Shown: one piece after another, positions 35,901 to 63,179 of the stretch | How the letters are laid out: each line of letters starts with the position of its first letter | Numbering within the stretch: position 1 is the first letter of the stretch | Assembly (NCBI GenBank): GCA_964016885.1 | Contig: OZ024742.1 | Coordinates: 88,908,001 to 88,972,000, forward strand | DNA: 64,000 bases | Direction of reading: 5' to 3' | Origin: Eledone cirrhosa | Lineage: Eukaryota | The notes under the pieces: generated by a model | What the model was told of the DNA's origin: nothing | The model's database searches: none | The model's input: only the letters and a program-made list of their open reading frames with translations | Program-made: the position numbers and the translations under genes

Positions 35901-36356
35901 AGATGATTTAAGTCAGTAATGTTTATTTTGTTTGTGATGATAATGTTTTTGAGAATTATGTTAGTCTTGTGTATTATCTTTTGGTTCTGTTTGGAGTTCT
36001 GGATCTTAGGGAGGGTGTCTCGTTCCCCCATGTCAGATTCTTTCATTTTCATCCATTCGATCATAATTTCATCCTTCAAGTTGGCAAGTTCATTCTCATT
36101 CATTTCTTTATCATTTACGATCTCATTATTTTCATTTGGACTTTCATCCTGAGCATGCACTCCCTCCACTTTTTCGCTCCTTTCTTTAATTTGTTCTGCC
36201 CCAACCCTGGGATTCGAAGCGTTACAGTTTACCTCGTTTTCACTGACACATGCTTCATTTTCCCTTCTCTGACTTTGTGCTACTAGCTTGATCTGATCAA
36301 TTTCTATATCAGTTAGTAACTTTGTTCTTACAATATTTCTTCGTATATTGGCTAGT
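32937..36356 (-). mobile_element. R4/Dong-clade non-LTR retrotransposon, 5'-truncated
   Basis: Long RT-RLE ORF, 140-bp 3' UTR ending in (TAA)n on its own strand, and broken N-terminal fragments at 35816-36356. Confidence 0.93.
33077..35713 (-). CDS. Reverse transcriptase + CCHC zinc finger + restriction-like endonuclease (R4/Dong-type), N-terminus disrupted
   Basis: 878-aa open frame with [65 protein letters not shown] and ANRPDII...LIDMS...EKLSKYKDL. Confidence 0.92.
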   Translation of the reverse strand: MKKKYSIRSTCDIDMLIETIKQKVSAKAARIRRFEKRSRFYKDNNMFKNNQRNFYRKIGKSTITAKSIPPKEEVQEFWEKIWAEEKVHNIHAPWIDRQMKETAHLEEQTWENITVEQLRLALRKTSKWKSPGKDKIQNFWINAFTESHELLAQLYNEIVKEPEKIPSWLVNGITFLLPKNDETNNPKNYRPITCLTTMYKMLTSVLTEYTYDHLITNDLFPIEQKGCKRGSYGCKDQLLVNKMILEDCHNIHKNLSIAWIDYKKAFDSLPHSWIEKCLEIFKISPVVRRFLSLSMRTWRTTLLLNSETKSLEAGEVNINSGIFQGDSLSPLLFCIALIPLSKMLNETKHGYRVYDKTINHLFYMDDLKLFAKNDEQLQGLLSTVKQFSDDIKMEFGLDKCAKATFTRGKLLESSDINLDRGNVIRELDQEQTYKYLGVCEGDGIKHSTMREGIRKECYRRVRAILRTELNARNRIDAINTLAIPVVTYSYNVINWSSTEIRRLDTKIRKFLTMHRMHHPKADIDRIYLPRKEGGRGLIQLEIALKTATIGLSTYLRESHDWMIKLVLKHESTKRSYSITKDAQRYSNGLQISEVPFTAEMENTEKAKQVKVTAKKELLQKLAKKWQEKPLYGKYPERANNPDVDKTLTHQWLASSGLKSETEGLIISAQDQCLPTKNYQANIIKNGCSTLCRVCKKQPETIDHIISMCSPIAPTEYLNRHDRAAQYIHWIMCKHFDLPHQKNWWEHQPPPILEKDHISILWNFSIQTDRKIDANRPDIILKDFQRRVCLLIDMSVPIDKNVSIKTFEKLSKYKDLEIEIGKMWKLRTKTIPVVVGALGMIPKGSNDYLSQIPGKPRIGEIQKIVLMGTAHILRKILSI

Positions 36357-36508
36357 TAAAATTGCCATTTATGGAAAAATGTTATTGTTGAATGTATATA
36401 AGTGCACATACATTGTTATCCGAAAAGGAGTCTCAAAAAGATCGGGGGCTTGAGCCCAAAATTTAAACTTTTATAATTATTTTTAAAAAAATTTTCTTTG
36501 AAAAAAAC

Positions 36509-38533
36509 ATGGACGACTCACAGCCACACGAAGCTGACAGCCTTCCTCAAAAACTAACACCTCACACCGACACCACCATTGTAAATATTACTACGTTTGC
36601 CAACACTAAAAATATAAGCAGTAGCAATATTTTAAATTTGTCTCAGGCAGACATTCATTTCCCGCTAATACCAATGACTGCAGATGTTAAAGCCGCCACC
36701 ACCACCACCACCACAGCGAAAACAGAAAAGAAAGAAAAGAATAAATTAACTCGTGATATCGAAAGGAATTCATCCAAAATGAACTCCTCCACACCGAACA
36801 CCACTGACGCCACCATCACCACAACTGAAACTAAAATTAATAATAACAAAAATAACGATAACAATAACAGCAACAATGACCACCCTGAGTTTTGCCAGAG
36901 TAGCAAAACAGTGCGAAGCATTTCTTGTAACTCAGGAGCAATTAGAAGAAGCCAAAAAATGGTAAAGAAATATGGGTACAGGGTCAGCCTCACCCCCACC
37001 CCCACCTAATAAAATGGAGCATCGGCGCCTATGCACCGTGTCTTATCGAACAATTAATATAAAATCGCGCAGACTGGAACGGGCATCCGAGTCCCAAATC
37101 CAAAATGCTTTGGGACATGTGTGGGCAAAAAAAACCCACATCAGACGTGGGCAGAAATATGGAACCGTGGACGTGTTCTTTGAAACACCACAGGAGGCTA
37201 GAGAACACTCCTTGGTCCCATTAAGAAGTGACGATTTCACACTTGTCCCAAGGTATTGTGGCCAGAGACTCGTAAAGTTCAGGGTGACCCACGTTCCACC
37301 GGCCATCGAAATTCCCTGGCTAATAGCTGCCGTCCTCGCCGGCATCGAAGCCAATACCAAGATAATCGAAATACCGAAAGAAAACCAGGAGAACTGGTCC
37401 GGATCTGGGATGGAGCTCCTGATCCAAGCGGACCAAAAAAGCATAGATGAGATCCCAGAGGTAATAGACCTCAGTGACGGCAGCCACCTCACGGTAATCG
37501 TCGAGGTCAGAAGGCCTAGGTGTCTCGTTTGTGGTGAAGGAACCCACCTAAGGGCTTTCTGCCCTCAGGCTAAAAGGTTGAGGCCACCTCTTTTACCCAC
37601 CTCAGTCACTCAACCATCAACACAACCAGCAGCAGAGATGGCAGCAACAACTGTAGCAACAACAACAGAAGCAACTGTAACAGCAACAACCCCAGCAACA
37701 GTAACAAAACCAACACCTCCACCACCCAACGCGCCCGAACTAGCATCAGCGCCTACACCATCCACCACGCCACAACCAAAACCAACACCTGTGGAGGATT
37801 TTCCACTCCGCGGCCTATCACAACTGGAGACAGATTGTGACGACGAGTGGGAAATGGTATCAGGATAAAAAGAAAAAAAGAATCCAAAAAAGAGAAAAAT
37901 GATCTTCCTTCCCCCTCCAAAAACAAAATACAGAGGGAAACAAATAAACTATCAAACAAAAAAGTTAGGACAGATATGCCACCATCCACACAAGCATCAC
38001 CAACCCCAACACCACAAACACCAACACCATCACCATCATTAACCCCAACACCACCATCACCAACACCATAAAAGTCACCAAAAACCGAAACAGAAACAAA
38101 CCCACAACAAACGCAAACAAAACAAAACAACCAAAACGATACACACTACACAGCATTGGTTGACTTTGCCTTTCATCCTTACGGGGTCGATAAAATAAAG
38201 TACCAGTAATGCACTGGGTAATTGCTGGCCTTGTGCCTAAAGTAGAAACAATTATATTTGAACAACAACCAATTATTACACTACATCCAACACAACAGCA
38301 GCATCACCGAAAAAGACAACACAACAACCCAAAACTTCACACCACCTCCACACATACAAATCACTCGCATCACACAGAAAACGTACACGACAATAAAACA
38401 AAAATTCCCCAAAGACATCGGAGATTTCCGACAAGCACTCTCCAGGAGGATTTATAAGGACATCCTTCTGGAGGAGGCCACAAGCAGTGAAAAGGATGGA
38501 GAAAGCATCCTTCCTCTACGAGAAGTAAGGTAA
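36509..38533 (+). pseudogene. Tx1 ORF1 type A (gag-like, CX2CX4HX4C), frameshifted and SINE-interrupted
   Basis: ORF fragments 36509-37009, 36972-37868, 37847-38071 and 38258-38533. Confidence 0.85.
38158..38254 (+). mobile_element. 5'-truncated SINE inserted in Tx1 ORF1
   Basis: Absent from the equivalent site of the sister copy (CAGCATTAAATTTGAAC at ~50203). Sequence matches the other SINE copies. Confidence 0.9.
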
Positions 38534-38567
38534 GTGGTCTTTCCCATCTTTTCCACTCCATTTCAAC

Positions 38568-41500
38568 ATGACCTCACTCAGAATAGGCAGCATAAATGCG
38601 CGCAGCTTGGGGTCGTCATGGAAGCAGGGCCACCTACTCAACGACCTCAGGTCACTAAACATAGATGTAGTGGTCATCAGCGAGACCAGAATCTCCGAAG
38701 CACGGGTCTTCGCACCGATCTTCGGCGGCTACGATGTGTACGCATCTCCCAGCCGTCCTGGATCGAAGGGAGGAGTTGCTGTGCTTTTTCGGAGAGGTCT
38801 GGATCTCGCCATACGGGTAATCTTCCTGGACCCAGAAGGTAAGTTGGTGGTGCTGGACGTGACCAGCAGAGACGGGCAAGCTTTCAGGCTAGTGGCCGTC
38901 TATGCTCCGACAGGAGCAGGGCGGGCTGATTTATTCCGGCGTATGGAGACCTTTCTTGGAACGTCCCGCTCTTTAGTGTTAGTGGTCGACTGGAAAGGGA
39001 TCTGAGATGCACGCTGGGACTGTGTGGGATAAGCGGATATTGGAGGAGGGTGCAAGAGCCTCACCAACCTGCTCAGGCATTTTGAACTGTCTGACAGGTA
39101 CCGATTGGATTTCCCAAATGTGCCAATGTGGACTTGGACAAATCGCATAGGGTCATCCAGATCATATCTAGATAGAGTATTTTGTAGGGAAATATATAGG
39201 TCTAGCATAGGCTGTCCACAATTCAAGATAGTCAGCTACACGGACTGCAAATTCGTGATCTGTGTGCTTGAATTAGATAGGCTTCATAGACGAGGACCCG
39301 GCTACTGGAAGCTAAACGCGTCCTTACCAGCGCGCAAGGACTGCAGAGACCGGATTAGCGAACTAGGTAGGAGAGCGTTGACGGGGGCCATCGTCAACAA
39401 CAGGTGATGGTTTGCTCTGAAAAGAGAGATTAGAATAGAGTCCATTAAGTTTAGTAAGGCTTTAGCAGTAGAGAAAAATAGAGCAGAGGGAGAATTAGTT
39501 AGAAAATTAGACGAGGCGCTTAGCAAAAGCATCGCCAGCCATGTACTTGCGGGGAAATTGGCCCTTGACCAATTCTTCAATGCAAATCACGAAGGCTGCG
39601 TTGTCAGAGCTAAGGTGCGTACTCTCAGACACGAGGTGATGAAAGCCGTTCAATGGACCCGAGTGGCGGAGGCGCGCCGTGGCAACAAAGCCACGATACG
39701 GTCTTTGGTGGACAACGACGGGCGCATGCTATTCGAACCCGGGCAAATGTGTGTATCTTTCCAGCGACACTTCGCCCAGCTGTTCGGTGGCAGCGGCGGG
39801 CCGGATCGAGGGATGGACTTTAGTGTCTACCTCGACGGACTGCCGCGGCTCTCGGCCACTGAGGCGGAGTGTTGCGAAAAGCCGATAACAGCCGCTGAAG
39901 TACGGGAGACAATGACTGGCTGCACAAGGGGTAACTCGCCTGGTTTGGATGGTCTACCTATGAACTTTACGTACAGATGCCAGACTCGTTCGGAGGCCTC
40001 TTGGCGGACGTCTACTGCAACTAGCAACAGAACTGGAGAATTCCCAGCTCTGTAGGCCGGAGAGCTGTGGCGCTGCTGAGAAAGGATCCGAAAAGGGGGG
40101 ATAACATAGATAATTTTAGGGCCATAATTCTGCTAAATACAGAGTTCAAGAATTTGGCCAAGGTCCTAGCAAAGAGATTGTCGTTGGAGGTCTGGGGGGA
40201 GAGGCGCAGACATGCGCCATTCCCGACAGATCCACTCACGACAACCTCCACCTCATGCGATACATCGTAGAGAGGGTAGCTAGGGAACCTGGCACGGGTG
40301 GGTCCTTAAACAATTTGATCAGTCGAAAGCTTTCGATAGGGTCGACCATCGTTACCTAACGGCAGTCATGAGGGCGGCTGGCTTTGGGCCCGTCTTCAGT
40401 GGCTGGATCGCTGCCATGCACAGCGACATCTGCTCTCTGGTGAGAGTGAACGGTCACCTTTCGGAACCGTTCAACATCATGCACTCGGTCCGCCAAGAAT
40501 GTGCCCTCTCGTCCCTCTTGTACGTATTGATTCTCGAGCCATTACTGAACAAACTGGGGACGTTGAGGGGTTCCCGCGCGAACTAGGATGCGGAAGATCC
40601 GTGTCAGCATATGCGCACGATGTCACCGTAGTGGTGTCGAACGCCAAACACATCGAGGCGATCGGCACTACACTAAGAGAATAGGCAGCGGTGACAGGTG
40701 CAATGATCAACCAGGGAAAGTCAGTGGGCCTGCAGTTCGGCACCTAGAAAGGCAGGTCCATGCCGTCGAACAGCTTCGTCGGGCGCTGGACGGACGGACC
40801 GGTTAAATTGCTAGGGGTCTAGTTCGGTCCAGATCTCCAGACGGACAAAAACTGGGACGAGGTGACGAGCAGGGTGGCTTCTCTCACCCAGAAATGGGCG
40901 GAGAGGAAGCTGTCATTGAAAGGTCGAGCGGAGGTGGCTAACACGTACGACACGTCCGTCATCTACTACCGCCTGACCGTCGTACCTTGTCCTAAGCCCC
41001 GCCTGACAGCGCTGGAGCGTTTGCTCTTTCGCTTTTTGTGGAAGGGACGCGCTCCGATGGTCAGGCGGTCCATCTGCTGTCAACACCCGCTACGTGGAGG
41101 GCTGGGCATGCCGTGGCTGATGATGCGCAGACACGCGCTCAGGCAACGACATCTCCACCTCTTCCTCGACGGTCATCAGGTGTGGTCGCCGTTTGCTAGA
41201 CACGTCTTCCCCCAGCTCGTCTCCTTGACGGAGCTGCAGTCCTGGGTCAAGTGAAGACCGAGAGGGAGCGCCTGGAGACTAGAATGTCTTCAGGCGCTCA
41301 CAGCCCTCGACCAATCGGGCAATGTGATCGGTGGAAACTCCACCTCGGCCTTCTATAGAGGATTAGTGGAGGGGAAGAGCGACGACGTACTTGGAGAAAC
41401 TCTAGGCGTCGACGAAAATCAACTAGCTTCGGAAGGACTTTCTGGCCGGGCCTAAGGACAACTTCCAGAAATCCCTGGCCTGGCAGTGCTACCGAGGCCT

Positions 41501-41967
41501 TTGCCAGTTCGGGATAAAATCTACATGCATGGAGGTGCCGCCAGCCGGGCATGTCCGAGATGCGCGCAGGGCGACGAAACCGTCCTGCACGCACTCGTCC
41601 AGTGTCCGAGCATTGCTGACTTGTAGGTTTATGTCGAACACCTGCTGTCACGTGTAGGACGGATCCAATAGCAGCTGAGTCCATTGTGAGGATTGCCCCG
41701 CCCTCTTCCTTTAGCCGGGAAGGGCAGGCAGTATTTCTCTGTCTGGTGGCCATGGTGAAAGAGATAGTATGGTGGACACGTTTGAAAGGGCTGAAGACGA
41801 GCACTTACCTCTTCGGTGATTCCCTGATTAACTTTTTCAAATTTTATTTGAAAAGGAAAATCAGGGTAGAGAGGGAAGTGCTCTCTTCCCAGCATTTTGT
41901 TGAAAGATGGGTGAGAGAAGCAAGTGTGGCCCGAGTGAATGGGCCTACTCAGAGTATGTGTCTGTAA
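38568..41967 (+). pseudogene. Tx1 ORF2 (APE-RT), disrupted
   Basis: Starts MTSLRIGSINARSLG, contains SYLDRVF, has YAHD in place of YADD, and multiple premature stops. Confidence 0.9.
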
Positions 41968-42447
41968 ATTAAAGGTGGAAAACTGGGAGAGGGCACTTGC
42001 CCTGGTGGTCAGGGTCACTGTGGCCATTTAATGGGCTTTCTCTACAAATGTCCCTCGGAAGTCTCCCCCCTATTGGGGAATTTTTCATTGTTATTTTTTA
42101 TTACATCCTCTGTTTTTTTTACACGCTGAAATGCCCATTTGTACCGTCCTGTATTGTCCTGTACTGTCCTTAATGTCTACTTTATATAAACCCTTGTGGT
42201 TAATGAAGAAAGCATTATTATTATTATTATTATTGAATGCCATGGTTGACGGAGGCTCGGCTCTGTAAGGTATAGTAATTTTTAACCGTTAAAACAATTG
42301 TAAATTGTTTAAAACTTGAACCAAATTGTTGATAAAGACACCCTCCTCCTCGTGAGAGGGGTCTTTCTGTCCGTTATTTGGCCCTTCGGGGTTAAATAAC
42401 CAGTTATTGGGGTTTTGTACCCAAAATTTCATTTTAAACAAAAAAAC

Positions 42448-44544
42448 ATGGCTACGAAAAAGAAATTTCATACGTCACTCCCACTCATTCCGTCTTCTTC
42501 TTCCTCAATCATCACTACAGCAGAGAGAAGATTGTCTCTCTCCCTCCCTTCTTTAAATGTGTCTCTCTCCCTCCCTTCTCTTTCGCAAGCGACGAAAGAA
42601 AAGAAAAGTCTCGTGCAAAGCGTGCAAGGTTTCTCCACGACGACGACGACAGCGACGAAACAGGTGTGCGGGAAATACGAAAACCCAGTTCATTCGTCTG
42701 ACGTCAGGAATAATAGCAGTAGCAGCCGTAATAACAACAGCAACAGTGACAATGAAAACAACAGTAGCAGCCGCAACAGCATCACCAGCAGCATAAACAA
42801 CAACAGCATTAGCAGCAGCAACACCAACAACAACCACAGCAACAGCGGCGGAGGCAGTAGTCGTAGTACCTGCAGCAACAACAAAAGTACCAGCAGCTCT
42901 GACGACAACAACAACAGCAGAGAAAAACCAATCTCATTTGCAGGTATTGCGAAAAACTTGGAAACAATCCTCATAACAAATGAGGAATTAGAGGAAGCGA
43001 AGAAGATGGTGACAAAGAACGGACACCGAGCAATCTGCAAGGCAGCGAAAATTTTTTTCGAAACCCAAGAGCACTGTACGGTCACGTACCGTACAGTAAG
43101 TACAAAATCCCGTAGGGTGGAAAGAGCCACAGAGGCCCAAATACAAAAAGCCTTGGGGTCTGTGTGGCAGAGGAAAACGCACATCACCCGAGGCAAAAAA
43201 TACGCCACCGTAGACGTACTTTTTGCCACACCCCAGGAGGCAAAGGCCCAATCAGTAGTGACCCTAAGGAGCGAGGAAATGGTGTTGGTGCCCTCCTACT
43301 GCGGGCAAAAAATTGTGAGGGTCAAACTGACCCACGTCCCCCCCGGAATGACCCCTTCTTGGCTGGCCGCGTCTGTCCTCGTCGGAATCGAGGACAAAAC
43401 AACTGTACTGCAAGTACAGAAAAAAGTAAGAGAAGATTGGGTCGGCTCCTCCATTGAGATGCTAATCCAAACCAACCAGGAGTGCATCGAAGCTATCCCG
43501 GATGTGATAGACTTCGATAACGGCACTCAACTGCCCATAAGTGTTGAGGGCAAACGCCCGAAATGCTTTCGCTGTGGATCGAAGACTCACCTCAGGGCCT
43601 TCTGCAACGAGAAGACCCTGAGAAAGGAGAAAACCCCCCTCCTTCCGAATCCGGCTCCACGGCTACCAGCAACAGGACAAGCGGCAACCAGGAACGATAG
43701 GTCCGTGGCACCCATACCCACGCCACGGAAATCAAAAACAGCAGCAGCAGTGGAAATATTAACAACAACAACAGCAATACCAAATGCAGCTGCAACAGAG
43801 ACTCCAGTGCAAACATCACCAACAACAACAAGTGAAAGAGTGGAGCTGGTACCCCTCCCCGACCTCACAGAATCAGACATGGAGTGTGAGGTGGGAGAGG
43901 GATGGCAAAAGGTCGCAAGAAGGCACAAACGCAGAAGCAGCGCATCGTCGCCTTTGAAAAGGGAGGAAAGAAATGAGAAAAGGGTAAAGTCTACTGCAAA
44001 GAGACCCACAGCAGCAACAACACCAACACCATCACCACCCACACTAGCGCCACCATCACCACCGGCGACAACCCCACCGCCAACAACACCTTCAACACCA
44101 CCACCACAAGCACCAACATCGCAAACACAACAACAAAACACACACACCCAGCAACAACGACAAGAAAATAGCAGAACCACACCCCACCCCCAGAAAAACA
44201 AATGCACGGCAATAAATACACACAACAAGAAACTAATGACTTACATAATTGAACACACAGACATTTCACAACAGGACTACATAATACCAGCACCAATCAA
44301 AACGCCAACTAACATAAGACTGCTAAAAATAGCACAGAAACAATACACAAACATTAAAACGAAATTCCCCAACGCAGTTGGTGATTTCAGGGACCTAGGA
44401 GGAACCATCAATCGAAGAGTATACTCAGACATTCTCTTAGAAGAGCCGATGACCAGCCGAAGGGACGATTCAACGGTCCCTTCACCAGACGATCAAGTGA
44501 AAAGGGATGTAAAAACCATCCCTCCTCTACCAAAAGTACGGTAA
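42448..44544 (+). CDS. Tx1 ORF1 type B, gag-like nucleic-acid-binding protein with CCHC knuckle
   Basis: Uninterrupted frame from ATG 42448. N/S low-complexity N-terminus, SFAGIAK motif, CFRCGSKTHLRAFC and a P/T-rich linker. Confidence 0.88.
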   Translation: MATKKKFHTSLPLIPSSSSSIITTAERRLSLSLPSLNVSLSLPSLSQATKEKKSLVQSVQGFSTTTTTATKQVCGKYENPVHSSDVRNNSSSSRNNNSNSDNENNSSSRNSITSSINNNSISSSNTNNNHSNSGGGSSRSTCSNNKSTSSSDDNNNSREKPISFAGIAKNLETILITNEELEEAKKMVTKNGHRAICKAAKIFFETQEHCTVTYRTVSTKSRRVERATEAQIQKALGSVWQRKTHITRGKKYATVDVLFATPQEAKAQSVVTLRSEEMVLVPSYCGQKIVRVKLTHVPPGMTPSWLAASVLVGIEDKTTVLQVQKKVREDWVGSSIEMLIQTNQECIEAIPDVIDFDNGTQLPISVEGKRPKCFRCGSKTHLRAFCNEKTLRKEKTPLLPNPAPRLPATGQAATRNDRSVAPIPTPRKSKTAAAVEILTTTTAIPNAAATETPVQTSPTTTSERVELVPLPDLTESDMECEVGEGWQKVARRHKRRSSASSPLKREERNEKRVKSTAKRPTAATTPTPSPPTLAPPSPPATTPPPTTPSTPPPQAPTSQTQQQNTHTQQQRQENSRTTPHPQKNKCTAINTHNKKLMTYIIEHTDISQQDYIIPAPIKTPTNIRLLKIAQKQYTNIKTKFPNAVGDFRDLGGTINRRVYSDILLEEPMTSRRDDSTVPSPDDQVKRDVKTIPPLPKVR

Positions 44545-44579
44545 GTGGTCTTTCCCATCTTTTCCACTCTATTTTAAAC

Positions 44580-47500
44580 ATGACCTCACTCAGAATAGGC
44601 AGCATAAATGCGCGTGGCTTGGGGTCGTCATGGGAGCAGGGTCACCTGCTCAACGACCTCAGGTCACTAAACATAGATGTAGTGGCCATCAGCGAGACCA
44701 GAATCTCCGAAGCACGGGCCTTCGCACCGATCTTCGGCGGCTACGATGTGTACGCATCTCCCAGCAGTCCTGGATCGGGTGGAGGAGTTGCTGTGCTTTT
44801 TCGGAGAGGTTTGGATCTCGCCATACGGGCCATCTTCCTGGACCCAGAGGGTAAGCTGGTGGTGCTGGACGTGACCAGCGGAGACGGGCAAGCTTTCAGA
44901 ATAGTGGCCGTCTATGCCCCGACAGGAGCAGGGCGGCCTGATTTCTTCCGGCGTCTGGAGACCTTTCTTGGAACGTCCCGCTCTTTAGTGTTAGTGGGCG
45001 ACTGGAACGGGATCTTAGATGCACGCTGGGACTGTGTGGGATTAGCGGATAGGGGTGGAGGGTGCAAGAGCCTCACCAACCTGCTCAGGCGTTTTGAACT
45101 GTCTGACAGGTACCGATTGGATTTCCCGAATGTGCCAATGTGGACTTGGACAAACCGCATAGGGTCATCCAGATCATATCTAGATAGAGTATTTTGTAGG
45201 GAAATAGATAGGTCTAGCATAGGCTGTCCACAATTCAAGATAGTCAGCTACACGGACCACAAATTCGTGACCTGTGTGCTTGACTTAGATAGGCTTCATA
45301 GACGAGGACCCGGCTACTGGAAGCTAAACGCGTCCTTACCAGTGCGCAAGGCCTACAGAGACCGGATTAGCGAACTAGTTAAGCGGGCGTTGACGGGGGC
45401 CATCGTCAACAACAAGTGGTGGTTTGCTCTGAAAAGAGCGATTAGAATAGAATCGATTAGGTTTAGTAAGGCTTTAGCAATAGAGAAAAATAGAGCAGAG
45501 GGAGAACTAGTTAGAAAATTAGACGAGGCGCTTAGCAAAGGCATTGCGACCGACGTGCTTGCGGCGAAATTGGCCCTTGACCAATTCTTCAATGCAAAGC
45601 ACGAAGGCTGCGTTGTCAGAGCTAGGGTGCGTGCTCTCAGACACGAGGGGACGAAAGCCGTTCAATGGGCCCGAGTGGCGGAGACCCGTCTTGGCAACAA
45701 AGCCACGATCCGGTCTTTGGTGGACCACGACGGGCGCATGCTACTCGATCCCGGGCAAATATGTGAAGCTTTTCAGCGACACTTCGCTCAGCTGTTCGGG
45801 GGCAATGGGGGGCCGGGTAGAGGGATGGACTTTAGTGTCTACCTCGACGGACTGCCGCGGCTCTCGGCCACTGAGGCGAAGTGTTGCGAAAAGCCGATAA
45901 CAGCCGCTGAAGTACGGGAGGCAATGACTGGCTGCACAAGGGGTAAATCGCCTGGTTTTGGATGGTCTGCCCTATGAACTTTACGTACAGATGCCAGACT
46001 TGTTCGGAGGCCTCTTGGCGGACGTCTACTGCAACTGGCAACAGAACGGGAGAATTCCCAGTTCTGTGAGCCGAGGAGCGGTGGCACTGCTGAGAAAGGA
46101 TCCGAACAAGGGGGATAACATAGAAAATTTCCGGCCCATAACTCTGCTAAACACAGAGTTTAAGATTTTGGCCAAGGTGCTAGCAAAGAGGTTGGCGCTT
46201 GTCGTTGGTGGTCTGGTGGGAGAGGCGCAGACATGCGCCATTCCCGACAGATCCATCCACGACAACCTCCACCTCATGCGATACATCGTAGAGAGGGTAG
46301 CTAGGGAACCTGGCACGGGTGGGTCCTTGATCAATTTAGATCAGTCGAAAGCTTTCGATAGGGTCGACCATCGTTACCTAGCGGCAGTCCTGAGGGCGGC
46401 TGGCTTTGGGCCCGTCTTCAGAGGCTGGATCGCTGCCATGCACAGCGACATCTGCTCTGTGGTGAGAGTGAACGGTCACCTGTCGGAACCGTTCAACATA
46501 ATGCGCTCGGTCCGCCAAGGATGTCCCCTCTCGTCCCTCTTGTACGTATTGACTCTCGAGCCATTACTGCACAAACTGGAGACGTTGAGGGGAGTCCCGC
46601 GCGAACTAGGATGCGGAAGATCCGTGTCAGCATATGCGGACGATGTCACCGTAGTGGTGTCGAACGCCAAACACATCGAGGTGATCGGCACTACACTAAG
46701 AGAATACGAAGCGGTGACAGGAGCAATGATCAACCAGGAAAAGTCAGTGGGCCTGCAGCTCGGCACCTGGAGAGGCAGGTCCATGCCGTCGAACAGCTTC
46801 GTCGGGCGCTGGACGGACGGACCGGTTAAATTGCTAGGGGTCTGGTTCGGTCCGGACCTCCAGACGGACAAAAACTGGGACGAGGTGACGAGCAGGGTGG
46901 CTTCTCTCACCCAGAAATGGGCGGAGAGGAAGCTATCCCTGAAAGGTCGAGCGGAGGTGGCTAACGCGTACATCGCGTCTGTCATCTGCTACCGCCTAAC
47001 CGTCGTACCTTGTCCTAAGCCTCGCCTGACTGCGCTGGAGCGTTTGCTCTTTCGCTTTTTGTGGAAGGGACGTGCTCCGATGGTCAGGCGGTCCATCTGT
47101 TGTAAACACCCGCTACGTGGAGGGCTGGGCATGCCGTGGCTGATGATGCGCAGGCACGCGCTCAGGCTACGACATCTCCACCTCTTCCTCGACGGTGATC
47201 AGGTGTGGTCGCCGTTTGCTAGACGCGTTTTTCCCCAGCTCGTTTCCTTGACGGAGCTGCAGTCCTGGGTCAAGCGAAGACCGAGAGGGAGCGCCTGGAG
47301 ACTGGAATGTCTTCAGGCGCTCACAGCCCTCGACCAATCGGGCAATGTGATCGGTGGAAACTCCACCTCGGCGTTCTATAGAGGATTAGTGGAGGGGAAA
47401 AGCGACGACGTACTTGGGGAAACTCTAGGCGTCGACGAAAATCAACTAGCCAATCTCTTCGGAAGAACTTTCGGGCCAGGGCCTATGGACAACTTCCAGA

Positions 47501-48000
47501 AATCTCTGGCCTGGCAGTGCTACCGAGGAGCCTTGCCAGTTCGGGATAAACTCTACAGGCATGGAGGTGCCGTCAGCCGGGCATGTCCGAGATGCGCGCA
47601 GGGCGACGAAACCGTCCTGCACGCACTCGTCCAGTGTCCGAAAATTGCTGCCTTGTGGGTTTATGTCGAACACCTGCTGTCGCGTTTAGGACGGATCCAG
47701 CTATCATCTGAGTCTATCGTGAGGATTGCCCCGCCCTCCTCCTTTAGCCGGGAAGGGCAGGCAGTTTTTATCTGTCTGGTGGCCATGGCGAAAGAGATAG
47801 TATGGTGGACACGTTTGAAAGGGCTGAAGACGAGCACTTACCTCTTCGGTGATGCTCTGATTGACTTTTTCAAATTTCATTTGAAAAGGAAAATCAGAGT
47901 AGAGAAGGAAGTGCTCTCTTCCCAGCATTTTGTTGAAATATGGGTGAGAGAAGCAAGAATGGCCCGAGTGAATGGGCCGACTCTGAGTATATATCTGTAA
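44580..48000 (+). CDS. Tx1 ORF2: APE endonuclease + RT + C-terminal CCHC (one +1 frameshift at ~45957)
   Basis: SINARGL, SETR, VYAP, GDWN, SYLDRVF and TDH (APE); FRPITLLN, LDQSKAFDRVDH, VRQGCPLS and YADD (RT); CPRCAQGDETVLHALVQC. CCTGGTTTTGG here versus CCTGGTTTGG in the other copies. Confidence 0.9.
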
Positions 48001-48248
48001 ACTAAAGGTGGAAAACTGGGAGAGGGCACTTGCCTTGGTGGTCAGGGTCATTGTGGCTTGTTACTGGGCTTTCTCCACAAATGTCCCTCCGAAGTCTGCC
48101 CCCTATTGGGGAATTTTTCATTGTTATTTTTTGTTACATCCTCTGTTTTTGTTTTTTACACGCAGAAATGCCCATTTGTACCGTCCTGCATTGTCCTGCA
48201 CTGTCCTTAATGTCTACTTTATGTAAACCCTTGTGGTTAATAAAGAAA

Positions 48249-48292
<44 letters not shown>

Positions 48293-48499
48293 GGCGACCT
48301 ACGTAGGAAATCGTATTATCGTGAGCTCCGCAAAGGTTTGTTATTTCCGTTTGTTTAAAAATTGCCATTTATGGAAAATTTTATTGTAAACTGTTTATAA
48401 GCACATACATTGTTTTCCGAAAAGGACACCCAAAAAGATTTGGGCCTTGTGCCCAAAATTTTAACTTTTATTATTATCCAAAAATTTCTTTGAAAAAGA

Positions 48500-50489
48500 A
48501 TGGCTAATTCCCCTCTGCACGAAGCAGCTGAAAGCCTTCCTCACAAAATAACACCTCACACCGACACCACCATTGTAAATGTTACTACGTTTGCCAACAC
48601 AAAAAAAAAATATAAGCAGTAGCAATATTTTAAATTTGTCTCAGGCAGACATTCATTTCCCGCCATTACCAATGACTGCAGGTGTTAAACCCTCCACCAC
48701 CACCACCACCGCGACAACCACCACCACCACCACCACCACCGCGACAACAGAAACAAAAGAAGAAAAAAATAAATTAACTCGTGACGTCGAAATGAAATCA
48801 AGCAAAATGGACTCTTCCCCACCAAAGACGACTGACGTCACAACCACCACAACTGAAAATAAAATTAATATTAACGATAGCAACAACAACAACAATGATA
48901 TTATAAAACCGACCCTCAGTTTCGCCATCGTAGCAAAACAATTCGAAGCGTTCACGGTAACCCAAGAAGATTTAGAAAATGCCAAACAAATGGTAAAGAA
49001 AGATGGGTACAGGGTCAGCCTCACCCCCCCACCTAATAAAATGGAGCATCGGCGCCTGTGCACCGTGTCGTATAGAACAATAAATGTAAAATCGCGCCGA
49101 GTGGAACGGGCATCCGAGTCCCAAATCCAAAAAGCTTTGGGACATGTGTGGGCAAGAAAAACCCACATCAGACGTGGGCAAAAGTATGGAACCGTGGATG
49201 TGTTCTTTGAAACACCAGAGGAGGCTAGAGAACACTCCATGGCCCCATTAAAAAGTGACGACCTCACACTCGTCCCAAGCTATTGTGGCCAGAGACTCGT
49301 AAAGATCAGGGTGACCCACGTTCCACCGGCCATCGAAATTCCCTGGCTAATAGCGGCTGTCCTCACCGGCATCGAAGCCAACACGAAAATAATAGCAGTA
49401 GCAAAAGAAAAGCAGGAAAACTGGTCCGGATCTGGGATGGAGCTCCTGATCCAAGCGGACCAAAAAAGCATTGAGGAGATCCCAGAGGTAATAGACCTCA
49501 CTGACGGCAGCTACCTCACGGTAATTGTCGAGGGCAGAAGACCTAGGTGTGTCGTTTGTGGTGAAGGAACCCACCTAAGGGCTTTCTGCCCTCAGGCTAA
49601 AAGGTTGAGGCCACCTCTCCTACCCACCCCAGTGACAAAACCATCAACACCACCAGTAGCAGAGATGGCAGCAACAACTGTAGCAGCAACAACAGAAGCA
49701 ACTATAACAGCAACAACCCCAGCAACACTAGCAAAACCAACACCACTACCACCACCAGCAAAACCAACACCACCACCACCCAACGCTTCAGAACTAGCAC
49801 CAGCGCCTACACCATCCACCACACCACAACCAAAACTAACGGCTGTGGAGGATTTTCCAATCCCCGGCCTATCACAACTGGAGACAGATTGTGACGACGA
49901 GGAGTGGGAAACGATATCCGGAAAAAAAAAAAGAAACCAAAAAAGAAAAAATTCTCTTCCTTCCCCCTCCAAAAACAAAATACAGAGGGAAACAAATAAA
50001 CTAAGAAACAAAAAAGTTAGGACAGATATGACACCATCCACACCAGCATCACCAACCCCATCAACCCAAACACCAACACCATCACCATCATCATCCCCAG
50101 CACCACCATGACCTACACCACAAAAGTCACCAAAAAGCGAAACAGAAACAAACCCACAACAAACGCAAACAAAACAAAACAACCAAAACGATACACACTA
50201 CACAGCATTAAATTTGAACAACAAGCAATTATTACACTACATCCAACACAACACCAGCATCACAGGAAAAGACTACACAACAACCCCAAAATTCACACCA
50301 CCTCCACACATACAAATCACTCGCATCACACAGAAAACGTACATGACACTAAAACAAAAATTCCCCAAAGACATCGGTGACTTCCGACAAGCACTCTCCA
50401 GGAGGATTTATAAGGACATCCTTCCTGAGGAGGCCACAAGCAGTGAAAAGGATGGAAAAGCCGTCCTTCCCCTACGAGAAGTAAGGTAA
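48500..50489 (+). pseudogene. Tx1 ORF1 type A (frameshifts near 48605 and 50108)
   Basis: 510-aa frame with CVVCGEGTHLRAFC, plus the C-terminal piece 50214-50489. Confidence 0.85.
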
Positions 50490-50523
50490 GTGGTCTTTCC
50501 CATCTTTTCCACTCCTTTTCAAC

Positions 50524-53500
50524 ATTACCTCACTCAGAATAGGCAGCATAAATGCGCGTGGCTTGGGGTCGTCATGGAAGCAGGGCCACCTGCTCAACGA
50601 CCTCAGGTCACTAAACATAGATGTAGTGGCCATCAGCGAGACCAGAATCTCCGAAGCACAGGCTTTCGCACCGATCTTCGGCGGCTACGATGTGTACGCA
50701 TCTCCCAGCCGTCCGGGATCGGGGGGAGGAGTTGCTGTGCTTTTTCGGAGAGGTTTGGATCTTGCCATACGGGCCATCTTCCTGGACCCAGAAGGTAAGT
50801 CGGTGGTGCTGGACGTGACCAGCGGAGACGGGCAAGCTTTCAGGTTAGTGGCCGTCTATGCCCCGACAGGAGCAGGGCGGCCTGATTTCTTCCGGCGTCT
50901 GGAGACCTTTCTTGGAACGTCCCGCTCTTTAGTGTTAGTGGGCGACTGGAACGGGATCTTAGATGCACGCTGGGATTGTGTGGGATTAGTGGATAGGGAA
51001 GAAGGGTGCAAGAGTCTCACCAACCTGCTCAGACGTTTTGAACTGTCTGACAGGTACCGAATGGATTTCCCGAATGTACCAATGTGGACTTGGACAAATC
51101 GCATAGGGTCATCCAGATCATATCTAGATAGAGTATTTTGTAGGGAAATAGATAGGTCTAGCATAGACGAGGACCCGGCTACTGGAAGCTAAACGCGTCC
51201 TTACCAGCGCGCAAGGCCTACAGAGACCGGATTAGCGAACTAGTTAAGCGGGCGTTGACGGGGGCCATCGTCAACAAATAGAGCAGAGGGAGAATTAGTT
51301 AGAAAATTAGATGAGGCGCTTAGCAAAGGCATCGCGACCGACGTACTTGCGGCGAAATTGGCCCTTGACCAATTCTTCAATGCAAAGCACGAAGGCTGCG
51401 TTGTCAGAGCTAGGGTGCGTGCTCTCAGACACGAGGGGACGAAAGCCGTTGAATGGGCCCGAGTGGCGGAGGCGCGTCGTGGCAACAAAGCCACGATCCG
51501 GTCTTTGGTGGACCACGACGGGCGCATGCTACTCGATCCCGGGCAAATGTGTGAAGCTTTTCAGCGACACTTCGCTCAACTGTTCGGGGGCAGTGGCGGG
51601 CCGGATCGAGGGATGGAGTTTAGTGTCTACCTCGACGGACTGCCGCGGCTTTCGGCCACTGAGGCGGAGTGTTGCGAAAAGCCGATAACAACCGTTGAAG
51701 TACGGGATGCAATGACTAGTTGCACAAGGGGCAAATCGCCTGGTTTGGATGGTCTGCCCTATGAACTTTACGTACAAATGCCAAACTTGTTCGGAGGCCT
51801 CTTGGCGGACGTCTACTGCAACTGGCAACAGAACGGGAGAATTCCCAGCTCTGTGAGCCGAGGAGCGGTGGCGCTGCTGAGAAAGGATCCGAACAAGGGG
51901 GATAACATAGATAATTTTAGGCCCATATCTCTGCTAAACACAGAGTTCAAGATTTTGGCCAAGGTGCTAGCAAAGAGGTTGGCGCTTGTCGTTGGTGGTC
52001 TGGTGGGAGAGGCACAGACATGCGCCATTCCCGACAGATCCATCCACGACAACCTCCACCTCATGCGATACATCGTAGAGAGGGTAGCTAGGGAACCTGG
52101 CACGGGTGGGTCTTTGATCAATTTAGATCAGTCGAAAGCCTTCGATAGGGTCGACCATCGTTACCTAGCGGCAGTCCTGAGGGCGGCTGGCTTTGGGCCC
52201 GTCTTCAGAGGCTGGATCGCTGCCATACACAGCGACATCTGCTCTGTAGTGAGAGTGAACGGTCACCTTTCGGAACCGTTCAACATCATGCGCTCGGTCC
52301 GCCAAGGATGTCCCCTCTCGTCCCTATTGTACGTATTGACTCTCGAGCCATTACTGCACAAACTGGAGACGTTGAGGGGGGTCCCGCGCGAACTAGGATG
52401 CGGAAGATCCGTGTCAGCATATGCCGACGATGTCACCGTAGTGGTGTCGAACGCCAAACACATCGAGGTGATCGGCACTACACTAAGAGAATACGAAGCG
52501 GTGACAGGAGCAATGATCAACCAGGAAAAGTCAGTGGGCCTGCAGCTCGGCACCTGGAGAGGCAGGTCCATGCCGTCCAACAGCGTCGTCGGGCGCTGGA
52601 CGGACGGACCGGTTAAATTGCTAGGGGTCTGGTTCGGTCCAGACCTCCAGACGGACAAAAACTGGGACGAGGTGTCGAGCAGGGTGGCTTCTCTCACCCA
52701 GAAATGGGCCGAGAGGAAGCTATCCCTAAAAGGTCGAGCGGAGGTGGCGAATGCGTACATCGCATCCGTCATCTACTACCGCCTGACCGTCGTACCTTGT
52801 CCTAAGCCCCGCCTGACTGCGCTGGAGCGTTTGCTCTTTCGCTTCTTGTGGAAGGGACGCGCTCCGATGGTCAGGCGGTCCATCTGCTGTCAACACCCGC
52901 TACGTGGAGGGCTGGGCATGCCGTGGCTGATGATGCGCAGACACGCGCTCAGGCTACGACATCTCCACCTCTTCCTCGACGGTGATCAGGTGTGGTCGCC
53001 GTTTGCAAGACACGTTTTTCCCCAGCTCGTCTCCTTGACGGAGCTGCAGTCCTGGGTCAAGCGAAGACCGAGAGGGAGAGCTTGGAGACTGGAATGTCTT
53101 CAGGCGCTCACAGCCCTCGACCAATCGGGCAATGTGATCGGTGGAAACTCCACCTTGGCGTTCTATAGGGGATTAGTGGAGGGGAAGAGCGACGACGTAC
53201 TTGGAGAAACTCTAGGCGTCGACGAAAATCAACTAGCCAATCTCTTCGGAAGGACTTTCGGGCCGGGGCCTATGGACAACTTCCAGAAATCCCTGGCCTG
53301 GCAGTGCTACCGAGGAGCTTTGCCAGTTCGGGATAAACTCTACAGGCATGGAGGTGCCGTCAGCCGGGCATGTCCGAGATGCGCGCAGGGCGACGAAACC
53401 GTCCTGCACGCACTCGTCCAGTGTCCGAGCATTGCTGACTTGTGGGTTTATGTCGAACACCTGCTGTCACGTGTAGGACGGATCCAGCTATCAGCTGAGT

Positions 53501-53787
53501 CCATCGTGAGGATTGCCCCACCCCCTTCCTTTAGCCTGGAAGGGCAGGCAGTTTTTATCTGTCTGTTGGCCATGGCGAAAGAGATAGTATGGTGGACACG
53601 TTTGAAAGGGCTGAAGACGAGCACTTACCTCTTCGGTGATGCCCTGATTAACTTTTTCAAATTTCATTTGAAAAGGAAAATCAGGGTAGAGAGGGAAGTG
53701 CTCTCTTCCCAGCATTTTGTTGAAAGATGGGTGAGAGAAGCAAGTATGGCCCGAATGAATGGGCCTTCTCTGAGTATGTGTCTGTAA
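50524..53787 (+). pseudogene. Tx1 ORF2; start ATG mutated to ATT, two deletions in the APE/linker, RT-CCHC part (51358-53787) open
   Basis: Comparison with 44580-48000 shows deletions at ~51165 and ~51278. The 809-aa open frame contains QGCPLS and YADD. Confidence 0.9.
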
Positions 53788-54029
53788 ATTAAAGGTGGAA
53801 AACTGGGAGAGGGCACTTGCCCTGGTGGTCAGGGCCACTGTGGTCTTTTAATGGGCTTTCCCCACAAATGTCCCTTGGAAGTCTCCCCCCTATTGGGGAA
53901 TTTTTCTTTGTTATTTTATTTCAACCTCTGTTTTTTTACACGCAGAAATGCCCATTTGTACCGTCCTGTATTGTCCTGTACTGTCCTTAATGTCTACTTT
54001 ATGTGAACCCTTGTGGTTAATAAAGAAAA

Positions 54030-54064
<35 letters not shown>

Positions 54065-54087
54065 TTATTATTATTATTATTATTATT

Positions 54088-58486: not shown

Positions 58487-58581
58487 TTTGCCTTTCATCC
58501 TTACGGGGTCGATAAAATAAAGTACTAGTAATGTACTGGGTAATTGCTGGCCTTGTGTCAAAAGTAGAAACAATTATTATT
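58487..58581 (+). mobile_element. 5'-truncated SINE
   Basis: TTTGCCTTTCATCCTTACGGGGTCGATAAAAT...GTAGAAACAATTATTATT, preceded by ATTATTATT. Confidence 0.9.
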
Positions 58582-59498
58582 AACTCCACCAAGGCGTTCT
58601 ATAGAGGATTAGTGGAGGGGAGGAGAGCGACGACGTACTTGGGGAAACTCTAGGCGTCGACGAAAATCAACTAGCCAATCTCTTCGGAAGAACTTTCGGG
58701 CCGGGGCCTATGAACAACTTCCAGAACTCCCTGGCCTGGCAGTGCTACCGAGGAGCCTTGCCAGTTCGGAATAAACTCTACAGGCATGGAGGTGCCGCCA
58801 GCCGGGCATGTCCGAGATGCACGTAGGGCGACGAAACCGTCCTGCACGCACTCGTCCAGTGTCCGAGAATTGCTGACTTGTGGGTTTATGTCGAACACCT
58901 TCTGTCGCGTGTAGGACGGATCCAGCTATCAGCTGAGTCGATCGTGAGGATTGCCCCGCCCTCTTCCTTTAGCCGGGAAGGACAGGCAGTTTTTACCTGT
59001 CTGGTGGCCATGGCGAAAGAGATAGTATGGTGGACACGTTTGAAAAGGCTGAAGACGAACACTTACTTTTTCGGTGATGCCCTGATTGATTTTTTCAAAT
59101 TTCATTTGAAAAAGAAAATCAGAGTAGAGAGGGAAGTACTCTCTTCCCAGCATTTTGTTGAAAGATGGGTGAGAGAAGCAAGAATGGCCCGAGTGAATGG
59201 GCCTACTCTGAGTATGTGTCTGTAAATTAAAGGTGAAAAACTGGGAGAGGGCACTTGCCTTGGTGGTCAGGGTAACTGTGGCCTTTTAATGGCCTTTCTC
59301 CACAAATGTCCCTCCGAAGCCTCCCCCCTATTGGGGAATTTTTCATTGTTATTTTTTGTTACATCCTCTGTTTTTGTTTTTTTACACGCAGAAATGCCCA
59401 TTTGTACTGTCCTTAATGTCTACTTTATGTAAACCCTTGTGGTTAATAAACAAATCATTATTATTATTATTGTTATTATTATTATTATTGTTGTTGTT
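58582..59498 (+). mobile_element. 5'-truncated Tx1 copy (end of ORF2, 3' UTR and tail)
   Basis: Near-identical to ~47358-48290 and begins directly in the (ATT)n tail of the SINE. Confidence 0.93.
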
Positions 59499-59545
59499 GT
59501 TCTTTGAGTCTCAGTCATTGTGTTCGTGTGTGATTGTGCCCGCGT
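59499..59545 (-). mobile_element. Tiny 3'-end fragment of a Dong-like element
   Basis: GTTCTTTGAGTCTCAGTCATTGTG matches GTTCTTTCCGTCTCAGTCATTGATG, the 3' terminus of the element at 54088. Confidence 0.55.
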
Positions 59546-61100: not shown

Positions 61101-61264
61101 TGTAATAAACAACATAGGATAATTATTTCATTTACCAGTTGTTTCTTGAACACAGATATTTATGTCTGTCTTCATTCATCAGAAAGAATGATGAATGAAG
61201 ACAGACATAAATATCTGTCTTCAAGAAACCACTGGTAAATGAAATAATTATCTTTTTACATAAC
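61097..61264. mobile_element. Foldback/MITE-like palindromic element
   Basis: 64-bp arms (61118-61181 / 61189-61252, 2 mismatches, 7-nt loop) plus outer GTTATGTAA / TTACATAAC inverted ends. Confidence 0.65.
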
Positions 61265-62997: not shown

Positions 62998-63179
62998 TGG
63001 CAGTATCGGTAGGGGGTCAAATTCCATGCTTCGCAGCATAGAGGTACGGCCCTTTATGATCTGAGTTCAAATCCCACCGAGGTTAGCTTTGCCTTTCATC
63101 CTTACGTGGTCGATAATCTAAAGTACCATTAGTACACTGGGGTAATTGCTGGCCTTGTGCCAAAAGTAGAAACAATTAT
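62998..63179 (+). mobile_element. Near full-length tRNA-derived SINE
   Basis: A-box-like TGGCAGTATCGG (62998), B-box GAGTTCAAATCC (63063), body shared with the three truncated copies, and possible TSD ATTATAT. Confidence 0.88.

What the first reader, a model, noticed from the sequence alone, without database searches (positions are those of the whole stretch)
44541..44593. ORF1 stop codon lies in a perfect splice donor; removing a 52-53-nt GT-AG segment fuses ORF1 and ORF2 in frame
Seen in all three long Tx1 copies: ...GTA CG|GTAAGT (44541) or GTA AG|GTAAGT (38530, 50486), where the TAA is the ORF1 stop. A pyrimidine tract follows (CTTTCCCATCTTTTCCACTC), then CTCACTCAG|A ATA GGC inside codon 5 of ORF2 (44593, 38581, 50537). 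Both sites are phase 2, so splicing gives ...V-R-I-G-S-I-N-A-R, a continuous ORF1-ORF2 polyprotein keeping the first APE motif. The arrangement holds behind both ORF1 types despite a 1-nt length difference; the copy at 50524 has lost the ORF2 ATG. Known: L1-clade ORF2 is normally made by re-initiation on a bicistronic RNA. Inference: a retained or regulated mini-intron may control ORF2 expression, with unspliced RNA as the transposition template. It may also be coincidence, and the intron is near the lower size limit.
Basis: partly seen in the sequence, partly recalled or inferred. Interest (0 to 1): 0.75.

Follow-up and report, generated by a model that had tools for sequence, protein, structure and literature searches.

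The report
Conserved splice donors at LINE stops
These Tx1-type jumping genes and their distant relatives keep a near-perfect splice-donor motif beside their stop codons, which likely serves to splice out the whole second gene and make a first-protein-only message rather than to fuse the two proteins; no RNA data could be tested.

Summary
In detail: three tandem, (ATT)n-associated Tx1/L1 copies have G|GTAAGT over the ORF1 stop and an in-phase CAG 52-53 nt on. The donor is not chance. It is the best or second-best U1 site of about 300 GT sites per copy. A sister family with 53% RT identity keeps the same motif but after the ORF1 stop and 7 nt before the ORF2 ATG, where no mini-intron or fusion fits; a further relative keeps it after a TAG stop. 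Two sister families also carry a donor 15-40 nt after the ORF2 stop and a 3'UTR acceptor; 19 junctions of more distant relatives have none. The proximal acceptor is weak evidence: a fit this good arises in 19% of shuffles. The window's top-ranked acceptor lies in the 3'UTR. Most likely the donor pairs with it, removing ORF2 as a retained intron and giving an ORF1-only mRNA, as Ty1/Copia does for Gag (inferred, about 0.45). Rivals: U1 binding without splicing 0.2, mini-intron fusion 0.15, other or neutral 0.2. No RNA run was available, so splicing is untested.

The parts
44538..44546 (+). U1-type 5' splice-site motif (ACG|GTAAGT) overlapping the ORF1 stop TAA 44542-44544, copy 2
   Evidence: rank 2 of 312 GT sites by U1 duplex energy
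38527..38535 (+). same donor (AAG|GTAAGT) at the ORF1 stop, copy 1
   Evidence: rank 1 of 288
50483..50491 (+). same donor (AAG|GTAAGT) at the ORF1 stop, copy 3
   Evidence: rank 1 of 284
44549..44576 (+). pyrimidine-rich inter-ORF spacer directly behind the donor
   Evidence: 86% Y; 30 nt from the donor identical in all three copies; Y-rich spacers also in distant relatives that have no donor
44580..44582 (+). ORF2 ATG at the canonical L1/Tx1 position
   Evidence: rank 6 of 69 in copy 2, 2 of 63 in copy 3, 5 of 59 in copy 1; chance fit 19%
48120..48165 (+). distal candidate acceptor in the 3'UTR: long U-rich tract then CAG (also 53945 and 59391; CTG in decayed copy 1 at 42128)
   Evidence: rank 1 of 69 (copy 2) and 1 of 63 (copy 3) by an ad hoc pyrimidine score
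48239..48244 (+). AATAAA 74 nt after the distal acceptor, then the (ATT)n tail
42448..44544 (+). ORF1 type B (698 aa, CCHC-like knuckle), copy 2
44580..48000 (+). ORF2 (APE endonuclease, RT, zf-RVT), copy 2, one frameshift near 45950; the inferred long retained intron 44541-48165 spans it
   Evidence: Pfam PF03372, PF00078, PF13966
36358..42234 (+). Tx1-like copy 1 (ORF1 type A, decayed, SINE inserted at 38158-38257)
42235..48292 (+). Tx1-like copy 2 (ORF1 type B), inserted at the (ATT)n tail of copy 1
48293..54072 (+). Tx1-like copy 3 (ORF1 type A, defective), inserted at the (ATT)n tail of copy 2
58582..59499 (+). 5'-truncated copy 4 with the 3'UTR acceptor intact

Best explanation
The motif at the ORF1 stop is a conserved U1-type splice donor of a Tx1 subclade, and it most likely pairs with the strong acceptor in the 3'UTR, so that ORF2 would be a 3.5-3.6-kb retained intron: spliced RNA would be an ORF1-only mRNA and unspliced RNA would make ORF2p by re-initiation and serve as template. 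Shown: the motif, its rank, its conservation and place in sister families, the acceptor-like sites, and that every copy seen keeps the intron-like segments. Inferred: U1 binding, splicing, the choice of acceptor, and the purpose (an excess of ORF1p over ORF2p, as Ty1/Copia gets excess Gag). In this family the splice would add 19 residues to ORF1p before a stop in the last exon.
For: (1) Sister family S (RT 53% identical, clade 100/100) has the same 12-14 nt around the donor, read in another frame: TAA G|GTAAGT, 7 nt, ATG. It was found in 65 loci, against 65 S-type APE starts counted in the table; about 10 sequence variants, tandem kin. (2) A diverged relative keeps GAG|GTAAGT after a TAG stop (L148), so the motif does not depend on TAA. 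(3) S has GTRAGT 15 nt after the ORF2 stop in 27 of 27 unique 3'UTRs, toggling A/G at +3 as donors do, and a pyrimidine tract plus TAG about 260 nt on in 27 of 27 (26 by pattern, 1 read by eye). Family T has CAG|GTAAGT 40 nt after its ORF2 stop (rank 1 of 393) and a long tract plus TAG 143 nt later. (4) More distant relatives: 0 of 19 printed junctions have G|GTRAGT in the 200 nt before ORF2; 0 of 17 ORF2 ends pair with U1 better than -7.7 kcal/mol, against -10.7 to -12.1 in S and T. (5) All stop-adjacent donors lie within 40 nt of the stop, which would escape EJC-dependent NMD (50-55-nt rule, recalled). (6) The window's top-ranked acceptor is the 3'UTR one. (7) S also has an intron-like 5'UTR segment with conserved ends. 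(8) An ORF1-only RNA carries no ORF2p in cis, which fits the lack of intron-less copies in the fetched G002 stretches given L1 cis preference (PMC5860796, passages). (9) Precedent: Ty1/Copia conserved donor and subgenomic GAG RNA (PMC5580714, abstract and section 8).
Against: No splice junction was observed in any RNA. U-rich 3'UTRs give acceptor-like sites readily, and the ranking score is ad hoc. Family T lacks the ORF1-stop donor, and the window family has only a weak site after the ORF2 stop, so the pattern is 4 of 6 stops. The S/T 3'UTR intron is retained in every copy seen although its spliced RNA would encode ORF2p and should be copied in cis, so it may be rarely or never spliced. No processed ORF1-only copy was found in the window or in G002, though the 3' tail would be retained. 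Conserved donors in human L1 are kept for another reason, a RUNX3 site (PMC5860796, passages). Only three families plus decayed relatives, from three assemblies, were compared.
Confidence: 0.45

Rival explanations
1. The donor binds U1 snRNP but is seldom spliced: it protects the full-length RNA from premature cleavage or controls its nuclear retention and 3' end formation.
For: All copies seen retain all intron-like segments. In Copia EVD the donor also suppresses premature termination (PMC5580714 section 8). Donors are better conserved across families than any acceptor.
Against: No AATAAA lies between the ORF1-stop donor and the 3'UTR in window copies 2 and 1, in S or in T, apart from one at T 5924 where there is no such donor, so there is little for U1 to mask. 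Conserved tract-plus-TAG sites in S and T 3'UTRs point to real pairing.
Confidence: 0.2
2. One reading: a 52-53-nt intron is spliced out, fusing ORF1 to ORF2 in frame, and this fusion is how ORF2 activity is made or tuned in this host's families.
For: The fit is exact in 3 of 3 copies and the proximal acceptor ranks 2 of 63 in copy 3. In this family alone the stop sits inside the donor at phase 2 and the spacer is long enough for an intron. Loose ends from a run of the same organism show a sister family with a pyrimidine tract and a CAG 1 nt before its ATG, also phase 2; another has CAG 5 nt before the ATG, phase 1 (30 letters each, their donors not seen). In S, 35 of 65 loci have a phase-2 CAG 38 nt after a weaker upstream GT.
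Against: In S the strong donor follows the stop, 7 nt before the ATG, and 30 of 65 loci (with full 1158-aa frames in that assembly) have no YAG there; the 38-nt site has no tract and cuts the first APE motif. T uses a TAATG overlap. The fit arises in 19% of shuffles, and T holds a 43-nt look-alike inside APE codons. The tract sits by the donor, as behind the S 3'UTR donor (71-79% Y). ORF2 keeps its Met. Spliced L1 RNAs that encode ORF2p leave intron-less copies (about 2% in human, PMC5860796); none is in the window (0 of 3).
Confidence: 0.15
3. The motif is kept for a non-splicing reason (a DNA-level factor site or a translation-coupling signal for ORF2 re-initiation), or pairs with some other acceptor, or is inherited without function.
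For: ORF2 of L1 is made by low-frequency re-initiation (PMC4091050, passages) and SART1 uses a stop-start overlap (PMC3894237, parts 1-2). A human L1 donor is conserved as a RUNX3 site (PMC5860796). One chance donor per element is expected.
Against: The motif recurs after the ORF2 stop, where no re-initiation is needed, and varies exactly as the donor consensus allows. Neutral survival of 12-14 identical nt at 40% APE and about 25% ORF1 identity is implausible. The junction RNA has no unusual structure (z 0.24).
Confidence: 0.2

Closest known systems
L1-Tx1 non-LTR retrotransposons (Tx1 clade; Kibi, Koshi, Keno; 13 recently active L1-Tx1 families in Octopus vulgaris, PMC13282606 Table 1)
   Same: ORF1 with a CCHC-like knuckle, ORF2 with APE, RT and C-terminal zinc motif, microsatellite-associated insertion, bicistronic layout with a Met-led ORF2.
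   Different: A conserved U1-type donor at the ORF1 stop (and after the ORF2 stop in sister families) with a 3'UTR acceptor; not seen in 19 junctions of more distant relatives and not found in my literature searches.
Ty1/Copia subgenomic GAG splicing (Arabidopsis EVD, PMC5580714)
   Same: A conserved donor at the end of the structural-protein region; unspliced RNA as template; predicted excess of structural over catalytic protein; U1 may also guard the full-length RNA.
   Different: Copia is an LTR element with one ORF, a short intron and premature termination, all shown in RNA. Here it is a two-ORF LINE, the inferred intron spans all of ORF2 and ends near the normal poly(A) signal, and nothing is shown in RNA.
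Spliced human L1 RNAs and SpIREs (PMC5860796)
   Same: Splice sites conserved within an L1-clade element.
   Different: Human sites lie in the 5'UTR and ORF1, harm retrotransposition, are kept for other reasons and leave intron-less copies; here they sit at stop codons and no intron-less copy was seen.
ORF2 translation by re-initiation or UAAUG stop-start coupling (human L1, SART1; PMC4091050, PMC3894237)
   Same: ORF2 keeps its ATG 35-36 nt after the ORF1 stop; family T has a TAATG overlap.
   Different: These mechanisms do not need or predict a donor motif.

Membership tests
L1/Tx1-clade LINE | APE endonuclease at the ORF2 N terminus | tested here: met
   PF03372, E 2.8e-14
L1/Tx1-clade LINE | Non-LTR reverse transcriptase with C-terminal zinc motif | tested here: met
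   PF00078 E 8.5e-29, PF13966 E 3.1e-8
L1/Tx1-clade LINE | Separate ORF1 with a CCHC knuckle | tested here: inconclusive
   A C-x2-C-x4-H-x4-C motif is visible in the window ORF1s; no Pfam hit at cut-off, weak zf-CCHC in relatives (E 0.002-0.08)
Tx1 clade | Target preference for a repeat such as a microsatellite (PMC4494074) | tested here: inconclusive
   Copies 2, 3, 4 and a solo tail start at or end in (ATT)n tracts; one window only, and own tails cannot be told from targets
Tx1 clade | RT groups with named Tx1 references in a tree | not testable with these tools
   Trees hold only unnamed relatives; the label Tx1 rests on domain layout and recall
Spliceosomal GT-AG mini-intron (44541-44593) | 5' splice-site consensus | tested here: met
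   rank 1-2 of about 300 GT sites per copy
Spliceosomal GT-AG mini-intron (44541-44593) | Pyrimidine tract and branch point adjoining the acceptor | tested here: inconclusive
   Tract at +9 to +36 from the donor; last 17 nt 59-71% Y; no clear branch motif by eye
Spliceosomal GT-AG mini-intron (44541-44593) | Acceptor and phase conserved in related active families | tested here: not met
   S: donor after the stop, no YAG in 30 of 65 loci; T: no donor
Spliceosomal GT-AG mini-intron (44541-44593) | Junction present in RNA | not testable with these tools
   No RNA holder listed
Copia-type subgenomic splicing (works-like claim) | Conserved donor at the end of the structural ORF | tested here: met
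   Window, S and L148; absent in T
Copia-type subgenomic splicing (works-like claim) | A short structural-protein mRNA exists and is on polysomes | not testable with these tools
   Needs RNA data

The most novel reading that the evidence does not exclude
An animal Tx1 subclade is an intron-carrying LINE lineage that sets its protein ratio by alternative splicing from one donor at the ORF1 stop: unspliced RNA is the template, the distal 3'UTR acceptor gives an ORF1-only mRNA, and in this host's families a proximal acceptor 52-53 nt away also gives an ORF1-ORF2 fusion protein, a Gag-Pol-like product not described for two-ORF LINEs in my searches.
Probability: 0.13. Interest if true: 0.8.

Novelty: new variant of a known kind. 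Interest (0 to 1): 0.52.

Why it matters
How two-ORF LINEs set the ORF1p to ORF2p ratio is usually put down to translation on one bicistronic RNA. Conserved donors at the stop codons of a LINE subclade would show a second route, splicing or U1 control, convergent with Ty1/Copia, and introns that survive retrotransposition because only unspliced RNA is copied. It is directly testable in existing cephalopod RNA-seq by counting two junctions. It would also matter for annotation, since such donors can splice into host exons. If no junction is found, the element is an ordinary Tx1 LINE with an unexplained conserved U1 site.

Tried and rejected
Own genome: none held, so no genome-wide search for intron-less copies. 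RNA: no RNA holder listed. Contigs of four runs of unknown kind laid on 44250-45050: no 44540-44594 joint among the 15 of 60 joints shown (smallest depth shown 8.6, against about 1-2 x 10^5 at the junction in X1); contigs carrying the unspliced segment in X4, X5, X6; none of the 40 of 167 listed differences touches donor, ATG or CAG. Contigs drop rare variants, so this is not counted for or against expression. The stretch laid did not include the 3'UTR acceptor. Protein searches for fused or extended ORF1: nothing among 7998 long candidates or 476 short ones; weak negatives. Viral contigs: no relatives. Metagenome scan: 7 distant loci, 5 read, none with the donor. Donor-plus-APE pattern scan: 65 of 84 loci were family S, the other 19 had no APE, so no new family. 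The 3.1-kb units in G002:C9 are 5'-truncated, not spliced. Copy 3's two deletions are microhomology-type, not GT-AG. No Rfam or tRNA hit. Junction fold not unusual. A-to-I read-through of the stop was rejected because the ORF1-ORF2 frame differs between copies. A calicivirus-type UGGGA re-initiation motif (recalled) was rejected because it varies in S. Decayed G001 copies L121/L147 and L145 have the donor mutated or deleted and were not counted as active families. Earlier scan notes: none found. Literature searches found no report of this arrangement; subscription papers, Repbase entries and supplements were not seen.
Full report
Observation. The sequence is as described. GTAAGT begins at 38530, 44541 and 50486 and contains the ORF1 stop; the first AG downstream ends at 38581, 44593 and 50537; the segments are 52, 53 and 52 nt; removing them keeps the frame open into ORF2. 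The three copies are tandem LINEs (36358-42234, 42235-48292, 48293-54072), each starting at the (ATT)n tail of the one before, with APE, RT and zf-RVT domains. Two ORF1 types, about 51% identical in the core, precede near-identical ORF2s; the switch lies within about 45 nt upstream of the donor. The host is likely an octopod. This is inferred from repeat content and recall; O. vulgaris has recently active L1-Tx1 and Dong-R4 families (PMC13282606, passages), both kinds present here.

What the window alone can show. The lost ATG is in a copy with other breaks. The 1-nt difference lies in the spacer and is harmless under any model. A second perfect donor lies inside ORF2. With the spacer shuffled and ORF2's first codons resampled by the element's codon use, the first AG is a phase-2 YAG that keeps the first APE motif in 19% of 200,000 trials. 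So the proximal acceptor is modest evidence. The donor is different: it ranks 1 of 288, 2 of 312 and 1 of 284 GT sites by U1 duplex energy, and the background of G|GTRAGT is 0.11 per kb.

Relatives. No own genome and no RNA run were held. Animal DNA co-binned in bacterial MAGs supplied relatives. The window family forms a clade (100/100; 1.0) with family S (L002-L047, G002; RT 53%) and family T (L108; RT 52%). None of 20 fetched stretches matched the window's SINE or satellite, so the hosts appear to differ. In S the junction reads TAA G|GTAAGT, 7 nt, ATG: the same 12-14 nt as in copies 1 and 3, but ORF1 stops at the first TAA, not the second. A pattern scan that required the donor found 65 S loci; I count 65 S-type APE starts; they are tandem kin of about 10 variants. 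A diverged relative has TAG GAG|GTAAGT, 5 nt, ATG (L148). Two other decayed G001 copies have lost the motif. T has no donor there but a TAATG stop-start overlap. Because the strong S donor follows the stop, it cannot fuse the ORFs. A weaker upstream GT with a CAG 38 nt on exists in 35 of 65 S loci, lacks a tract, cuts the APE motif and is absent in the other 30.

A second pattern appeared. S has GTRAGT 15 nt after the ORF2 stop in 27 of 27 unique 3'UTRs (26 S plus L121), switching between GTAAGT and GTGAGT, and a tract plus TAG about 260 nt on in all 27. T has CAG|GTAAGT 40 nt after its ORF2 stop, the best of 393 GT sites, and a long tract plus TAG 143 nt later. S also has an intron-like, U-rich 5'UTR segment with conserved ends. 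More distant relatives have Y-rich spacers or TAATG overlaps but no such donor: 0 of 19 printed junctions from 17 of 19 loci, some redundant, 0 of 5 more, and 0 of 17 ORF2 ends better than -7.7 kcal/mol. Within the subclade 4 of 6 stop codons carry a strong donor; the window's ORF2 stop has only a weak one and T's ORF1 stop none.

Mechanism. The conserved thing is the donor, not the mini-intron. Its most likely partner in the window is the 3'UTR acceptor at 48165 and 53945, ranked first of 69 and 63 candidates by an ad hoc score, 74 nt before AATAAA. That splice would remove ORF2, add 19 residues to ORF1p and stop in the last exon. In S the ORF1-stop donor could use the conserved 3'UTR TAG the same way. 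All stop-adjacent donors are within 40 nt of the stop, inside the 50-55-nt NMD limit (recalled; not shown for these hosts). An ORF1-only RNA has no ORF2p in cis, so it would rarely be copied; L1 proteins prefer their own RNA (PMC5860796, passages). This matches the lack of intron-less copies in the G002 stretches. Ty1/Copia uses a conserved donor to make a subgenomic GAG RNA, and U1 at that donor also guards the full-length RNA (PMC5580714, abstract and section 8). I put this at 0.45. Splicing, acceptor choice and purpose are all inferred.

Against it. No junction was seen in RNA. The S and T 3'UTR introns are kept in every copy although their spliced RNA would encode ORF2p, so splicing may be rare; this also weakens the cis-preference argument against the mini-intron. 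U-rich 3'UTRs mimic acceptors. T lacks the ORF1 donor. A conserved human L1 donor turned out to be a RUNX3 site (PMC5860796). These keep the fusion at 0.15. U1 binding without splicing gets 0.2 and other or neutral causes 0.2. The two splices are not exclusive.

Reads. Contigs of four runs of unknown kind showed no 44540-44594 joint among 15 of 60 joints listed and carried the unspliced segment. Contigs drop rare forms and the distal acceptor was outside the stretch laid, so this is not used as evidence on expression.

Known and new. The element is an L1/Tx1-type LINE by domain layout; placement against named Tx1 references could not be tested. ORF2 is normally made by re-initiation or stop-start coupling (PMC4091050, passages; PMC3894237, parts 1-2 of 3). 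Tx1 target preference is from PMC4494074 (passages). TART splicing concerns antisense RNA (PMC1636488, abstract). Searches found no report of conserved donors at LINE stop codons or of an ORF1-only spliced LINE mRNA; the library lacks most subscription papers and Repbase, and no supplements were read.

Verdict. Observation confirmed, interpretation partly supported: a real, conserved donor, probably not a fusion mini-intron. New variant of a known kind; interest 0.52. Counting two junctions in cephalopod RNA-seq would settle it.

Noticed in passing
window 33077-36355 and 54674-56059 (minus strand): Dong/R4-like elements (RT, PF00078; restriction-like endonuclease motifs by eye, label recalled) meet the Tx1 copies tail to tail at shared (ATT/AAT)n tracts, making a nested LINE cluster.
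   Followed up: partly
window 38158-38257, 58487-58581, 63081-63181: A SINE-like repeat (one copy inserted in ORF1 of copy 1) ends in a CCTTGTG motif also found at the 3' ends of the window Tx1, family S and, as CCTCGTG, family T; it may share a LINE-derived tail.
   Followed up: partly
window 44496-44540 versus 38486-38529: Two ORF1/5'UTR types are joined to one ORF2 type, with the breakpoint just upstream of the donor: ORF1 replacement or ORF2 homogenisation by recombination.
   Followed up: partly
L005:7486-7748 and L142:9573-9716: Intron-like 3'UTR segments in families S and T, starting 15-40 nt after the ORF2 stop, retained in all copies seen.
   Followed up: yes
L005 5'UTR, segment ending at 1673: Intron-like U-rich segment of about 200 nt in the S 5'UTR with conserved donor-like and acceptor-like ends and variable interior.
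   Followed up: partly
G002:C3-C19 and G001:C16: Bacterial MAGs carry long animal contigs; in G002 they hold head-to-tail arrays of intact 6.4-6.8-kb Tx1-like elements running to contig ends, and 3.1-kb 5'-truncated tandem units in C9.
   Followed up: partly
L108:6855-6897: A 43-nt GT-AG look-alike with perfect donor and tract inside APE codons of family T; used as a chance control.
   Followed up: yes
window 38839 and 50795: Second AG|GTAAGT in ORF2 (G-K-L codons); the majority form in run X1. Could be chance or a second donor.
   Followed up: no
window 5900-32550: About 26 kb of a roughly 101-nt satellite with (AT)n spacers, interrupted by 484-nt repeat blocks in a higher-order pattern.
   Followed up: no
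window 61118-61252: 135-nt inverted repeat (92% identity), possibly a MITE.
   Followed up: no
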